The notes under the pieces were generated by a model. The model was not told where the DNA came from. It did not search any database and was given only the letters and a program-made list of their open reading frames with translations. Positions 46,964 through 64,000 of a DNA stretch of 64,000 bases are shown in pieces. The stretch is from the human T2T-CHM13v2.0 reference genome, Homo sapiens. The stretch is taken from assembly GCF_009914755.1 (NCBI RefSeq), contig NC_060935.1, one strand, 5' to 3'. The position numbers and the translations under genes are program-made. Numbering within the stretch: the stretch's first letter is position 1; each line of letters begins with the position of its first letter.

Positions 46964-47868
46964 GGGGGAGGAGCCAAGATGGCCGAACAGGAAGAGCTCT
47001 GGTCTACAGCTCCAAGCGTGAGAGACGCAGAAGACGGGTGATTTGTGCATTTCCATCTGAGGTACCGGGTTCATCTCACTAGGGAGTGCCAGACAGTGGG
47101 CGCAGGTTAGTGGGTGCACGCACCGTGCGTGAGCCGAAGCAGGGCGAGGCATTGCCGCACTTGGGAAGCGCAAGGGGTCAGGGAGTTCCCTTTCTGAGTC
47201 AAAGAAAGGGGTGACGGACGCACCTGGAAAATCGAGTCACTCCCACCCAAATATTGCGCTTTTCAGACCGGCTTAAAAAACGGCACACTACGAGATTATA
47301 TCCCGCACCTGGCTCGGAGGGTCCTACGCCCACGGAGTCTCGCTGATTGCTACCACAGCAGCTGAGATCAAACTGCAAGGCGGCAGCGAGGCAGGGGGAA
47401 GGGGCGCCCGCCATTGCCCAGGCTTGCTTAGGTAAACAAAGCAGCCAGGAAGCTCGAACTGGGTGGAGCCCACCACAGCTCAAGGAGGACTGCCTGCCTC
47501 TGTAGGCTTCACCTCTGGGGGCAGGGCACAAACAAACAAAAAGACAGCAGTAACCTCTGCAGACTTAAATGTCCCTGTCTGACAGCTTTGAAGACAGCAG
47601 TGGTTCTCCCAGCACGCAGCTGGAGATCTGAATACGGGCAGACTGCCTCCTCAAGTGGGTCCCTGACCCCTGACCCCCGAGCAGCCTAACTGGGAGGCAC
47701 CCCCAGGAGGGGCAGACTGACACCTCACATGGCTGGGTACTCCAACAGACCTGCAGCTGAGGGTCCTGTCTGTTAGAAGGAAAACTAACAAACAGAAAGG
47801 ACATCCACACCAAAAACCCATCTGTACATCACCATCATCAAAGACCAAAAGTAGATAAAACCACAAAG
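46964..47868. promoter_or_regulatory. L1 5' UTR CpG-rich bidirectional promoter (sense promoter plus antisense promoter pointing in the CWF19L2 direction)
   Basis: YY1 motif AAGATGGCC and RUNX3 region TGCATTTCCATCTGAGG present; many CpGs retained; ~900-bp length is the short form lacking the 129-bp ZNF93-bound segment. Confidence 0.75.
47199..47414 (-). CDS. L1 ORF0 (antisense 5' UTR ORF), 71 aa, locally frameshifted and restored
   Basis: ATG at 47414; MAGAP...NQRDSVGVGPSEPG...TRFSRCVRHPFL matches ORF0 as I recall it; 216 nt including the stop. Confidence 0.75.
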   Translation of the reverse strand: MAGAPSPCLAAALQFDLSCCGSNQRDSVGVGPSEPGAGYNLVVCRFLSRSEKRNIWVGVTRFSRCVRHPFL

Positions 47869-48884
47869 ATGGGGAAAAAACAGAACAGAAAAACTGGAAA
47901 CTCTAAAACGCAGAGCGCCTCTCCTCCTCCAAAGGAACGCAGTTCCTCACCAGCAACGGAACAAAGCTGGATGGAGAATGACTTTGACGAGCTGAGAGAA
48001 GAAGGCTTCAGACGATCAAATTACTCCGACCTACGGGAGGACACTCGAACCAAAGGCAAAGAAGTTGAAAACTTTGAAAAAAATTTAGCAGAATGTATAA
48101 CTAGAACAACCAATACAGAGAAGTGCTTAAAGGAGCTGATGGAGCTGAAAACCAAGGCTCGAGAACTACGTGAAGAATGCAGAAGCCTCAGGAGCTGATG
48201 AGATCAACTGGAAGAAAGGGTATCAGCGATGGAAGATGAAATGAATGAAATGAAGCGAGAAGGGAAGTTTAGAGAAAAAAGAATAAAAAGAAATGAGCAA
48301 AGCCTCCAAGAAATATGGGACTATGTGAAAAGACCAAATCTACGTCGGATTGGTGTACCTGAAAGTGACAGGGAGAATGGAACCAAGTTGGAAAACACTC
48401 TGCGGGATATTATCCAGGAGAACTTCCCCAATCTAGCAAGGCAGGCCAACGTTCAGATTCAGGAAGTACAGAGAATGCCACAAAGATACTCCTCGAGAAG
48501 AGCAACACCAGGACACATAATTGTCAGATTCACCAAAGTTGAAATGAAGGAAAAATGTTAAGGGCAGCCAGAGAGAAAGGTCGGGTTACCCTCAAAGGGA
48601 AGCCCATCAGACTACCAGCGGATCTCTAGGCAGAAACTCTACAAGCCAGAAGAGAGTGGGGGCCAATATTCAACATTCTTAAAGAAAAGAATTTTCAACC
48701 CAGAATTTCATATCCAGCCAAACTAAGCTTCCTAAGTGAAGGAGAAATAAAATACTTTACAGACAAGCAAATGCTGAGAGATTCTGTCACCACCAGGCCT
48801 GCCCTAAAAGAGCTCCTGAAGGAAGTGCTAAACATGGAAAGGAACAACCGGTACCAGCCGCTGCAAAATCATGCCAAAATGTAA
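47869..48884 (+). pseudogene. L1 ORF1 of copy A, disrupted
   Basis: MGKKQNRKTG start; TGA TGA at 48196-48201, 1-bp deletion in the A-run at ~48551-48555, TCG>TAG at 48627-48629. Confidence 0.95.
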
Positions 48885-48947
48885 AGACCATCGAGACTAG
48901 GAAGAAACTGCATCAACTAACGAGCAAAATCACCAGCTAACATCATA

Positions 48948-62800: not shown

Positions 62801-63715
62801 AAAACCATAAAAACCCTAGAAGAAAACCTAGGCGTCACCATTCAGGACATAGGCATGGGCAAGGACTTCATGTCTAAAACACCAAAAGCAATGGCAACAA
62901 AAGCCAAAATTGACAAATGGGATCTAATTAAACAAAAGAGCTTCTGCACAGCAAAAGAAACTACCATCAGAGTGAACAGGCAACCTACAAAATGGGAGAA
63001 AATTTTCGCAACCTACTCATCTGACAAAGGGCTAATATCCAGAATCTACAAAGAACTCAAACAAATTTACAAGAAAAAAACAAACAACCCCATCAACAAG
63101 TGGGCGGAGGATATGAACAGACACTTCTCAAAAGAAGACATTTATGCAGCCAAAAAACACATGAAAAAATGCTCACCATCACTGGCCATCAGAGAAATGC
63201 AAATCAAAACCACAATGAGATACCATCTCACAGCAGTTAGAATGGCAATCATTAAAAAGTCAGGAAACAACAGGTGCTGGAGAGGATGTGGAGAAATAGG
63301 AACACTTTTACACTGTTGGTGGGACTGTCAACTAGTTCAACCATTGTGGAAGTCAGTGTGGCGATTCCTCGGGGATCTACAACTAGAAATACCATTTGAC
63401 CCAGCCATCCCATTACTGGGTATATACCCAAAGGACTATAAATCATGCTGCTATAAAGACACATGCACACGTATGTTTATTGCGGCACTATTCACAATAG
63501 CAAAGACTTGGAACCAACCCAAATGTCCAACAATGATAGACTGGATTAAGAAAATGTGGCACATATACACCATGGAATACTATGCAGCCGTAAAAAATGA
63601 TGAGTTCATGTCCTTTGTAGGGACATGGATGAAATTGGAAATCATCATTCTCAGTAAACTATTGCAAGAACAAAAAACCAAACACCGCGTATTCTCACGC
63701 ATAGGTGGGAATTGA
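59896..63715 (+). pseudogene. L1 ORF2 of copy B, frameshifted
   Basis: 8-bp deletion (AAAAAAAG) at ~61041 relative to copy A; the A-to-B offset changes from 10948 to 10940; splits into 392-aa and 847-aa ORFs. Confidence 0.95.
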
Positions 63716-64000
63716 ACAATGAGAACACATGGATACAGGAAGGGGAACATCACATTCTGGGGACTGTTGTGGGGTGGAGGGAGGAGGGAGGGATAGCACT
63801 GGGAGATATACCTAATGCTAGATGACGAGTTAGTGGGTGCAGCGCACCAGCATGGCACATGTATACATATGTAACTAACCTGCACATTGTGCACATGTAC
63901 CCTAAAGCTTAAAGTATAATAATAATAAATAAATAAATAAAAATAAAATAAAGTTACAAAATGTTTAAATTATAAAGTCAATAAATATATATTGTAACAA

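What the first reader, a model, noticed from the sequence alone, without database searches (positions are those of the whole stretch)
46964..63952. Two independently inserted full-length L1s homogenised by patchy interlocus gene conversion
Seen: copy A sits in an old antisense L1 with its own TSD and copy B sits in L2-like DNA, so the flanks are unrelated. Their ends differ: ~12 substitutions in ~205 bp of 3' UTR (GAGATC/AATATC/CACAAT in A vs GAGAAC/AACATC/CACATT in B), ~7 in the first 70 bp, and ORF1 SKTQ vs SKKQ. By hand comparison they are nevertheless identical over 51054-52166 vs 61994-63106 (~1.1 kb), 48629-49426 (~0.8 kb) and 47910-48200. Against the L1HS/L1PA consensus as I recall it, both share ~12 ORF1 changes (SDLRE, DTRTK, LAEC, RTTN, R110*, LRRIG, TLRD, RLPAD, SFLSE, RDSV, KEVL) and ~20 ORF2 changes (KNQEPS, LTGRD, DLIYIY, TNSLS, SLPMKK, QWKRT, CWESW, LIKQKS, WDCQL, FLGDL, KLLQE and others), plus a 1-bp 5' UTR deletion. 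Established: L1 needs its own ORF1p in cis, so an R110* source should not readily spawn siblings. Inference: repeated non-allelic gene conversion of different ages is making this intronic pair evolve in concert and spreading post-insertion mutations between copies.
Basis: partly seen in the sequence, partly recalled or inferred. Interest (0 to 1): 0.8.

Follow-up and report, generated by a model that had tools for sequence, protein, structure and literature searches.

The report
Neighbouring L1 pair exchanging sequence patches
Two full-length L1 retrotransposons that landed separately about 5 kb apart in a CWF19L2 intron have since copied patches of sequence onto each other, a tidy but ordinary example of gene conversion between neighbouring repeats.

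Summary
Copy A (46964-52991) and copy B (57911-63952, plus a 3' extension past the window end) are 98.3% identical. Their 91 differences are packed into six blocks. Six tracts totalling 3,018 bp have no difference at all: 1113, 798, 320, 291, 273 and 223 bp.

The clumping is far beyond chance:
- 0 of 100,000 uniform simulations reached a 1113-bp gap.
- 0 of 10,000 site permutations reached the observed run.

The insertions are independent. A has a 13-bp target-site duplication (TSD). B has a 9-bp TSD and about 48 nt of extra 3' sequence that matches chr12:69.2 Mb, not A's flank.

A and B share 51 variants that are rare among 15-36 related L1s. These have a neutral-looking nonsynonymous:synonymous ratio of 29:9. 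No other scored genomic L1 carries the tract haplotypes.

Non-allelic gene conversion between neighbours is the best explanation (about 0.8).
- R110* is a recurrent CpG change.
- Some shared variants are lineage alleles.
- A defective L1 can still produce a daughter copy.

This is a known kind of event. Ape orthologues and pangenome haplotypes could not be checked here.

The parts
46942..46954 (+). 5' target-site duplication of copy A (AGAAATGCTACTG)
   Evidence: Exact 13-nt repeat of 52992-53004 (sequence).
46955..46963 (+). 9 extra nt between A's TSD and the L1 5' end
   Evidence: Seen in the sequence. Origin unknown: untemplated filler or a short 5' transduction.
46964..52991 (+). Copy A: full-length L1 (5' UTR, broken ORF1, open ORF2, 3' UTR, A-tail)
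   Evidence: It is 97.09-97.26% identical to 8 other full-length genomic L1s.
48948..52775 (+). A's ORF2, open over 1275 codons
   Evidence: Pfam hits: RVT_1 (E = 9.9e-48) and Exo_endo_phos (E = 2e-20).
52992..53004 (+). 3' target-site duplication of copy A
57902..57910 (+). 5' target-site duplication of copy B (AAAGATAGC). The 3' copy is at 64009-64017, outside the window.
   Evidence: using locus L001 for the bases beyond 64000.
57911..63952 (+). Copy B: full-length L1 with its own A-rich tail
   Evidence: ORF2 is split by an 8-bp deletion after 61037. An ORF1 remnant of 218 codons remains.
63953..64000 (+). Extra 3' sequence of B, running to about 64008 with a second poly(A). It is an orphan 3' transduction or a template switch.
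   Evidence: 100% match of 56 of 64 nt to G000:C12:69202721-69202776, the only other hit in the genome. No L1 similarity in the 6451 bp fetched there.
47170..47392 (+). Zero-difference tract 1 (= B 58118-58340), 223 bp
   Evidence: A against controls is 4.93% here.
47910..48200 (+). Zero-difference tract 2 (= B 58857-59147), 291 bp. It holds the shared R110* at 48196.
48629..49426 (+). Zero-difference tract 3 (= B 59577-60374), 798 bp
   Evidence: Genome search: only A and B reach 100% (1440 bits); the best other scores 1381 bits.
49770..50089 (+). Zero-difference tract 4 (= B 60718-61037), 320 bp
50780..52166 (+). Zero-difference tracts 5 and 6 (273 + 1113 bp; = B 61720-63106), separated only by a CpG change in B at 51053/61993
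   Evidence: Genome search: only A and B reach 100% (2008 bits); the best other scores 1913 bits.
52167..52980 (+). Most divergent long block (= B 63107-63921): 23 substitutions, 2.83%. B carries older-stage alleles and A younger-stage alleles.
45454..46950 (-). Left part of the older antisense L1 into which A inserted. The right part is 52995-53047.
   Evidence: 70.6% and 88.7% matches to adjoining ORF2 positions on the minus strand.

Best explanation
Two L1 elements of the roughly 6.0-kb L1PA2/L1PA3 grade inserted separately, in the same orientation and 4.9 kb apart, in a CWF19L2 intron. B came from a slightly older stage of the L1 lineage, from a source at chr12:69.2 Mb that is absent from this genome. 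A came from a slightly younger stage.

Since then, homologous repair between the two copies (non-allelic gene conversion) has copied stretches of one onto the other. That erased differences in some segments and made mutations that arose in one dead copy common to both.

The six zero-difference tracts (half of the element) reflect very recent exchange. This could be one long heteroduplex repaired in patches, or several events. Shared rare variants scattered inside the divergent blocks reflect older exchange, lineage alleles, or both.

Shown here: independent insertion, the mosaic pattern, the shared rare variants and their neutral character. Inferred: the conversion mechanism, its direction and its timing.
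For: (1) The insertions are separate.
- A has a 13-bp TSD. B has a 9-bp TSD plus foreign 3' sequence whose only other genomic match is chr12:69202721-69202776.
- B is therefore neither a segmental duplicate nor a daughter of A.

(2) The pattern is a mosaic.
- 91 difference events lie in 2,995 bp and none in 3,018 bp.
- The largest-gap and top-3-gap statistics were reached in 0 of 100,000 uniform simulations.
- The run of 67 concordant polymorphic sites was reached in 0 of 10,000 permutations.
- In the blocks A and B differ by 1.9-2.9% (6.9% in the first 202 bp), about as much as either differs from unrelated controls. In the tracts they differ by 0%, against 1.5-4.9% to controls.

(3) Shared rare variants.
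- 51 shared alleles are carried by at most 2 of the 15-36 controls examined per site. 32 are in tracts and 19 outside.
- 30 substitutions are exclusive to A and B, against a mean of 0.41 for the other 44 pairs.
- These variants segregate from the private differences (43 runs against 66.3 +/- 5.5).

(4) The shared variants look like decay of a dead copy.
- N:S is 29:9, the same as for private changes (27:8).
- It differs from the 10:14 of alleles common in other L1s (P = 0.008).

(5) The tract haplotypes are unique to A and B among scored genomic L1s.
- 40 of 4395 candidates were scored and 40 of 3847.
- The best others are about 21 and 13 mismatches away.

(6) Lineage-stage conflict.
- At 39 sites that separate an older (X) from a younger (M) group, B has the older allele and A the younger at 6 sites: 47909, 50756, 52236, 52785, 52808, 52947. 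The reverse holds at 1 site.
- Polarity comes from two older L1s. Six B-like 3' ends confirm the X alleles.
- In the last 815 bp, 14 other loci score closer to B than A does. B is not among the 40 closest to A.

(7) Background from the literature.
- For Alu, non-allelic conversion is reported to be raised for copies within about 10 kb (passages read in PMC8230782 and PMC6598467).
- Repair of a LINE break by conversion from other LINEs is cited in PMC1920257 (passage and reference list).
Against: - No orthologous or population data were available, so no conversion event is seen directly.
- Shared rare variants also lie inside the divergent blocks (19 of 51). This could equally reflect common ancestry from a private source.
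- Such co-ancestry exists without conversion. L032 and L033, on different chromosomes, share 11 exclusive variants.
- Some 'rare' shared alleles are not unique. 8 of 51 occur in two older L1s. Each of 52389C and 52431G occurs in other L1s, and one 62-bp cluster is matched as well by a chr7 L1 as by B.
- The controls were chosen by similarity to A and are less diverged (0.45-0.86% rare variants against 1.43-1.48% for A and B), so polarisation is imperfect.
- Total derived density is lower in the tracts (1.06%) than outside (1.8-1.9%). A simple conversion model predicts equality (the control ratio is about 1.2).
- Mosaic X/M patterns are common among the control L1s too, so the stage conflict is suggestive only.
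- The GC bias of the shared variants is in the expected direction but not significant (17:16 against 19:34, P = 0.18).
- The global permutation P over all 45 pairs is 0.091.
- The genome searches score only the best 26-40 of thousands of candidates, so a closer relative could have been missed.
Confidence: 0.8

Rival explanations
1. A and B share ancestry from one private, already decayed source. They would be siblings, or A would be a daughter of B mobilised in trans, so most shared rare variants were inherited at birth. Conversion, if any, made only the zero-difference tracts.
For: - Shared rare variants are spread over the whole element, including 19 inside divergent blocks.
- Pairs with exclusive shared variants arise without conversion. 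L033 and L032 are parent and daughter on different chromosomes, with 11 exclusive variants and a shared ORF2 stop. A broken L1 can therefore be copied.
- A's 9 extra 5' nt loosely resemble B's 5' flank.
Against: - B's 3' tag places its source on chr12, so B is not A's daughter.
- At 6 stage-diagnostic sites A is younger-type than B, which a daughter or sibling should not be.
- Two copies of one source landing 4.9 kb apart in a 3.1-Gb genome is very unlikely a priori. Independent same-age neighbours are expected by chance and are exactly where conversion is favoured (inference).
- This model still needs conversion to explain 0 differences in 3,018 bp beside about 3% in the blocks.
- It then predicts more shared variants in the tracts (about 1.5-1.9%) than are seen (1.06%).
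Confidence: 0.13
2. The zero-difference tracts are an assembly or polishing artefact, with reads from one copy imposed on the other.
For: Nothing found here. It cannot be tested with the tools at hand, because only one assembly is held.
Against: - The tracts alternate six times with blocks holding 7-23 substitutions each, which is not the shape of a simple collapse.
- The copies lie 10.9 kb apart with unique flanks.
- Shared rare variants also lie outside the tracts.
- Inference from general knowledge: long accurate reads span such copies, and CHM13 is effectively haploid.
Confidence: 0.03
3. The uneven differences come from chance or from regional mutation-rate differences between two ordinary L1s of one subfamily, with no exchange.
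For: The UTRs are CpG-rich and more variable in the controls too (control-to-control divergence is 3.9% in the first 202 bp against 1.1-1.7% in ORF2).
Against: - Controls differ from each other by 1.1-2.2% inside the very tracts where A and B differ by 0%.
- The permutation conditioned on polymorphic sites gives 0 of 10,000.
- A and B share 30 exclusive substitutions, against a mean of 0.41 for other pairs.
Confidence: 0.01

Closest known systems
Non-allelic (interlocus) gene conversion between neighbouring Alu elements (Aleshin and Zhi 2010, as described in passages of PMC8230782 and PMC6598467)
   Same: These are dispersed retroelement copies of independent origin, within about 10 kb of each other. 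They share non-diagnostic mutations and show reduced divergence.
   Different: Here the partners are two full-length 6-kb L1s, so single tracts can exceed 1 kb and six tracts are visible in one pair. This pair was studied alone, not as part of a genome-wide statistic.
Gene conversion involving L1/LINE sequences: DSB repair from endogenous LINEs in mouse cells (Tremblay et al. 2000, seen only as a citation in PMC1920257), and an intrachromosomal conversion inside an L1 locus proposed in PMC1920257 (passage read)
   Same: L1 sequence is replaced by homologous L1 sequence from elsewhere on the chromosome.
   Different: Those are single events, or events in cell culture. Here there is a germline, evolutionary, probably repeated and possibly two-way exchange between one fixed pair.
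Concerted evolution of segmental duplications and duplicated genes (Teshima and Innan 2004; Mansai et al. 2011, as cited in PMC6598467)
   Same: Divergence is held down by exchange, gene trees are incongruent along the sequence, and the rate depends on distance and identity.
   Different: These paralogues arose by two retrotranspositions, not by DNA duplication. Homology therefore stops exactly at the element ends.
L1 parent-daughter pairs identified by 3' transduction (Szak et al. 2003, Goodier 2000 and Pickeral 2000, seen in the reference list of PMC13192797)
   Same: B carries a 3' tag that points to a source locus. The control pair L033 and L032 is a textbook case.
   Different: B's tag points to chr12, where no L1 is present in this genome. 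It does not link B to A.

Membership tests
Full-length LINE-1 (L1PA2/L1PA3 grade) insertion by target-primed reverse transcription | 5' UTR, ORF1, ORF2 with endonuclease and reverse-transcriptase domains, 3' UTR and A-tail | tested here: met
   - A and B align end to end with 8 other genomic full-length L1s that have 338-codon ORF1 and 1275-codon ORF2 frames.
- A's ORF2 hits Pfam RVT_1 and Exo_endo_phos.
- A-tails are visible.
Full-length LINE-1 (L1PA2/L1PA3 grade) insertion by target-primed reverse transcription | Target-site duplications flanking each copy, different for each | tested here: met
   A has a 13-nt exact TSD. B has a 9-nt exact TSD, whose 3' copy lies 9-17 nt beyond the window end.
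Full-length LINE-1 (L1PA2/L1PA3 grade) insertion by target-primed reverse transcription | Subfamily assignment by diagnostic positions against curated consensus sequences | not testable with these tools
   - No Dfam or RepeatMasker library is held.
- Indirect evidence: A, B and all 8 full-length controls lack a 121-bp 5' UTR segment that two more distant L1s have.
- Rare-variant load is 1.43-1.48%.
- The name L1PA2/L1PA3 and the link of that segment to the ZNF93 site are recalled, not tested.
Non-allelic gene conversion between dispersed repeats | Paralogues of independent origin: homology ends at the element borders and the flanks are unrelated | tested here: met
Non-allelic gene conversion between dispersed repeats | Tracts of identity significantly longer than expected from the pair's overall divergence (GENECONV criterion) | tested here: met
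   The pairwise permutation gave 0 of 10,000 and the gap simulation 0 of 100,000. The global P over all 45 pairs is 0.091.
Non-allelic gene conversion between dispersed repeats | Post-insertion (non-lineage) mutations shared by the two copies only | tested here: inconclusive
   - 51 shared rare alleles, 30 of them exclusive substitutions, with a neutral-like N:S.
- The tract haplotypes are unique among scored hits.
- Against this, 8 of 51 occur in older L1s, and single alleles recur elsewhere.
- Co-ancestry is not excluded for those outside the tracts.
Non-allelic gene conversion between dispersed repeats | Orthologous or population comparison showing that one copy changed to match the other | not testable with these tools
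   Only one human assembly is held. No ape genomes or pangenome haplotypes are available.
Non-allelic gene conversion between dispersed repeats | GC-biased outcome among converted variants | tested here: inconclusive
   W>S:S>W is 17:16 for shared rare variants, 19:34 for private ones and 84:128 for control singletons. Odds ratios are 1.6-1.9 with P = 0.18-0.25.
L1 3' transduction (for B's extra 3' sequence) | Unique sequence after the L1's own tail, ended by a poly(A) signal and a second poly(A), all inside the TSDs | tested here: met
   One search shows the layout. An AATAAA lies 13 nt before the second poly(A) (sequence).
L1 3' transduction (for B's extra 3' sequence) | The same sequence lies directly 3' of a source L1 elsewhere | tested here: not met
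   The sequence is found at chr12:69202721-69202776, but no L1 similarity exists in the 6.2 kb upstream. Either the source is absent from this haplotype, or the piece was added by template switching.

The most novel reading that the evidence does not exclude
The six zero-difference tracts (3,018 bp) stem from one or a few very recent exchanges. One possibility is a single heteroduplex of about 5 kb repaired in patches. From 0 differences against about 1.2% private change per copy in the blocks, the exchange falls within roughly the last 3-4% of the pair's lifetime. That would place it well after the human-chimpanzee split, so the tract borders could still be polymorphic in people. The pair would then be a natural, readable record of tract structure in human non-allelic conversion between kilobase-scale repeats.
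Probability: 0.35. Interest if true: 0.45.

Novelty: new member of a known kind. Interest (0 to 1): 0.3.

Why it matters
Conversion between neighbouring repeats distorts the age and subfamily calls made from divergence to a consensus. It also spreads or erases lesions. Here the shared ORF1 stop lies inside an identical tract, whereas B's 8-bp ORF2 deletion was not passed to A.

Most published evidence concerns 300-bp Alu elements. A 6-kb pair shows tract lengths and patchiness directly, and it is easy to follow in ape T2T and pangenome assemblies. It remains one instance of a known process, in an intron, with no sign of any effect on CWF19L2.

Tried and rejected
- Parent-to-daughter (A to B): rejected, because B's 3' tag maps to chr12 and not to A's flank.
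- Segmental duplication: rejected, because homology stops at the element ends and the TSDs differ.
- My early 'smoking gun', that A carries older-type alleles only inside an identical tract: weakened. With more controls, A and B share 9 older-type and 22 younger-type alleles in alternation, and control L1s are mosaic at these sites too.
- 'All 51 shared rare variants are unique to the pair': rejected. Short-window searches and two older L1s show that some are alleles found elsewhere.
- GC-bias test: right direction, not significant.
- PRDM9-like 13-mer scan: 4 hits in the window, one of them in A's 3' UTR G-run. It is low complexity and no weight is put on it.
- Link to the chr11 L1 array in PMC13192797: that array is at chr11:94.14-94.25 Mb, not this locus.
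- Literature search for CWF19L2 with LINE-1 and gene conversion: none of the 10 listed papers holds the gene name. The other listings show no paper on this pair.
- Earlier findings of this scan were not open to the session.
Fewer and smaller stretches were fetched instead.
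Full report
**What is there**

Window 46964-52991 (copy A) and 57911-63952 (copy B) are two full-length L1 elements on the + strand, antisense to CWF19L2. Their starts lie 10.9 kb apart, with 4.9 kb of unrelated DNA between them.
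- blastn aligns them at 98.309% identity: 89 mismatches and 6 gap openings in 6033 columns.
- A global MAFFT alignment shows that similarity stops at the element ends.
- A splits an older antisense L1. Window 45454-46950 and 52995-53047 match adjoining ORF2 positions on the minus strand.
- A is flanked by an exact 13-nt duplication, AGAAATGCTACTG, at 46942 and 52992. Nine extra nucleotides sit between the 5' copy and the L1 start.
- B is flanked by AAAGATAGC at 57902 and at 64009, just beyond the window. That position was read from locus L001.

**B has a 3' tag**

Between B's own A-rich tail and the 3' TSD lie about 48 nt of non-L1 sequence. It carries an AATAAA and is followed by a second poly(A).
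- A genome search with this piece found two places only: B itself and chr12:69202721-69202776, at 100% over 56 of 64 nt.
- The 6451 bp fetched there contain no similarity to A or B.
- So this is either a 3' transduction from a source L1 that is absent from this genome, or a template switch.
- Either way the sequence is not A's flank. B is therefore not a daughter of A, and the pair is not a DNA duplication.

Every item I could check is correct (details in the observation check). The three identical stretches are exact, and there are three more.
- There are 91 difference events, with multi-base indels counted once. All lie in 2,995 bp; the other 3,018 bp have none.
- With 91 differences placed uniformly, the largest gap averaged 332 bp and never exceeded 995 bp in 100,000 trials. 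The observed gap is 1113 bp.
- I also ran a GENECONV-like test. It permutes the order of the 446 gap-free polymorphic columns of A, B and 8 other full-length L1s. A and B match over runs of 67, 37 and 25 polymorphic sites. No permutation of 10,000 reached 67, and the same holds for the top-2 and top-3 sums.
- The global version over all 45 pairs gives P = 0.091, because one control pair differs at only 35 sites.
- Regional rate differences do not explain the pattern. Inside the tracts the controls differ from one another by 1.1-2.2% and from A by 1.5-4.9%. In the blocks A and B differ by 1.9-2.9% (6.9% in the first 202 bp), roughly what either shows to unrelated controls.

**Relatives in the genome**

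The window's assembly could be searched, but each search scores only the best 26-40 of thousands of candidates.
- Whole copy A: the best others are 97% identical. Eight that I fetched are 97.09-97.26%.
- 1113-bp tract: only A and B score 100% (2008 bits); the next scores 1913 bits, about 21 mismatches.
- 798-bp tract: A and B score 1440 bits; the next scores 1381, about 13 mismatches.
- Last 815 bp: 14 other loci score closer to B than A does. B is not among the 40 loci closest to A.
- So the relationship of the two copies changes along the element.

**Shared variants**

I aligned A and B with 8 full-length L1s, 28 3' halves, 12 5' halves and, later, two older L1s. For each variable site I counted how many controls carry A's or B's base. 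Of 164 events:

| Class | Events |
|---|---|
| Shared by A and B, allele in at most 2 controls (S) | 51 |
| Shared, allele common among other L1s | 22 |
| Private to A, rare allele | 34 |
| Private to B, rare allele | 38 |
| A carries a common minority allele | 7 |
| B carries a common minority allele | 11 |
| Both differ from the controls and from each other (52167) | 1 |

- S sites and difference sites are segregated: 43 runs against 66.3 +/- 5.5 expected, and 0 of 20,000 shuffles were as low.
- 32 S sites are in the tracts and 19 outside.
- Counting only substitutions carried by no other sequence, A and B share 30. The other 44 pairs average 0.41.

**Are the shared variants post-insertion decay?**

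In the ORFs the S class has 29 nonsynonymous and 9 synonymous changes.
- That ratio is the same as for private changes (27:8 including stops).
- It differs from alleles common in other L1s (10:14; Fisher P = 0.008).
- This fits mutations that arose in a dead copy rather than in an active lineage.

The evidence is not clean, though.
- 8 of the 51 S alleles occur in one or other of two older L1s that carry a 121-bp longer 5' UTR.
- In a 63-bp window with two S sites, ten fetched one-mismatch hits show each allele alone elsewhere (6 and 3 hits) and both together once.
- A 62-bp window with three S sites is matched as well by a chr7 L1 as by B.
- So part of the S class is lineage or older-type alleles, and my controls, picked by similarity to A, under-sample the family.

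**Lineage stage**

Seven controls form a group (X) that differs from the majority (M) at 39 sites.
- Two older L1s carry mostly X alleles (48 X, 17 M, 9 neither), so X is the older state.
- A and B both have M at 22 sites and X at 9.
- B has X where A has M at 6 sites: 47909, 50756, 52236, 52785, 52808, 52947. The reverse holds at 1 site, and at 1 site both carry a third base.
- Six L1s closest to B's 3' end confirm the X alleles there.
- B thus comes from a somewhat older stage than A. That fits separate sources and is awkward for any parent-daughter or sibling model.
- Mosaic X/M patterns are frequent among the controls as well, so I treat this as supportive only.

**Weighing the models**

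Chance and rate heterogeneity are excluded. Segmental duplication and descent of B from A are excluded.

The serious rival is co-ancestry from one private, decayed source, with conversion added to make the tracts.
- It is not absurd. The controls L033 (chr10) and L032 (chr2) are parent and daughter: L032 carries 17 nt of L033's 3' flank and a second poly(A). They share 11 exclusive variants and a TGG>TGA stop in ORF2.
- Against the rival: B's source was on chr12, and A is younger-type than B at six sites.
- Two products of one source landing 4.9 kb apart in 3.1 Gb is very improbable. Same-age neighbours arise by chance and are where conversion is favoured. For Alu, raised conversion is reported within about 10 kb (passages read in PMC8230782 and PMC6598467).
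- The rival needs conversion anyway for the tracts.
- Neither model fits the densities perfectly. Derived variants per copy are 1.06% in the tracts and 1.8-1.9% outside, against a control ratio near 1.2.
- I put conversion between independently inserted neighbours at about 0.8, co-ancestry plus conversion at about 0.13, and artefact at about 0.03.

**Timing (inference)**

There are no differences in 3,018 bp, beside about 1.2% private change per copy in the blocks. That puts the last exchange within roughly the last 3-4% of the pair's lifetime if the tracts are coeval, or under about 10% for the 1113-bp tract alone.
- With recalled ages of about 7-12 million years for L1PA2/L1PA3 (not checked in a paper here), that is well under a million years.
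- Six tracts that are all spotless, next to blocks at full divergence, look more like one or a few recent patchy events than a steady trickle. This is not shown.
- Direction is unresolved.

**State of the genes**

| | A | B |
|---|---|---|
| ORF1 | Stops at codons 110, 111 and 254; frameshift at codon 228 | Only the shared stop at codon 110 |
| ORF2 | Open over 1275 codons, with Pfam RT and endonuclease hits | Split by an 8-bp deletion |

The codon-110 stop is CGA>TGA at a CpG. It lies inside tract 2 and is also present in 3 of 19 controls. It may have been spread by conversion, or it may have arisen twice.

**Comparison with what is known**

This works like non-allelic gene conversion between dispersed repeats, which is documented mainly for Alu.
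- L1-to-L1 conversion is reported in cell culture and at single loci (PMC1920257, passages and reference list).
- PMC13192797 lists gene conversion among the processes that blur L1 history (passage read). Its chr11 array is a different locus.
- None of my four literature listings shows a paper on this pair.

**Verdict**

This is a real, well-marked instance of a known process. It is useful as a worked example and easy to test in ape and pangenome assemblies, but it is not surprising to a specialist. The decisive comparisons could not be run with the data held here.

Noticed in passing
L033 (G000:C10:78957490-78963550, +) and L032 (G000:C2:43665810-43671867, -): Two control L1s are a parent-daughter pair. 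L032 carries 17 nt of L033's 3' flank followed by a second poly(A). They share 11 exclusive variants and a TGG>TGA stop in ORF2. A copy with a broken ORF2 was apparently still retrotransposed, presumably with help in trans.
   Followed up: partly
window 63953-64000 (to about 64008 in L001); L069 = G000:C12:69196500-69202950: B's extra 3' sequence has its only other genomic match at chr12:69202721-69202776, where no L1 is present. It is either an orphan 3' transduction (source lost or absent from this haplotype) or a template switch.
   Followed up: yes
window 48948-52775: A's ORF2 is open over all 1275 codons, although A carries about 1.4% rare variants and its ORF1 is broken four times. All 4 of A's indels (one of them the deletion at 47361 shared with B) lie in the first 1.6 kb and none in the 3.8-kb ORF2. 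N:S gives no sign of selection, so this may be chance.
   Followed up: partly
window 52167 / 63107: At the first base after the 1113-bp identical tract, A has C, B has G, and 36 of 36 controls have A. Both copies changed at the tract border, but to different bases.
   Followed up: no
window 46955-47023: A has 9 unexplained nucleotides between its TSD and the L1 start, and 5 private changes in the first 60 bp of the element. That is a much higher density than elsewhere. The 9 nt loosely resemble B's 5' flank (they share AAGAT).
   Followed up: no
window 52836-52848 (-) and 63776-63788: The only PRDM9-like 13-mer hit inside the pair is the G-run of A's 3' UTR. B has two private G>A changes in the same run, at 63778 and 63785. 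The sequence is low complexity and may mean nothing.
   Followed up: no
window 53384-53585 and 54050-54248: A 200-bp direct repeat, 90% identical and 666 bp apart, lies in the spacer between A and B. Both copies are about 75% similar to L1 ORF2 at 50120-50275, so they look like old L1 fragments.
   Followed up: no
window 46598-47797: The RefSeq 'enhancer' feature given with the finding overlaps A's TSD and most of its 5' UTR, which is the L1 promoter region. I did not examine this further.
   Followed up: no
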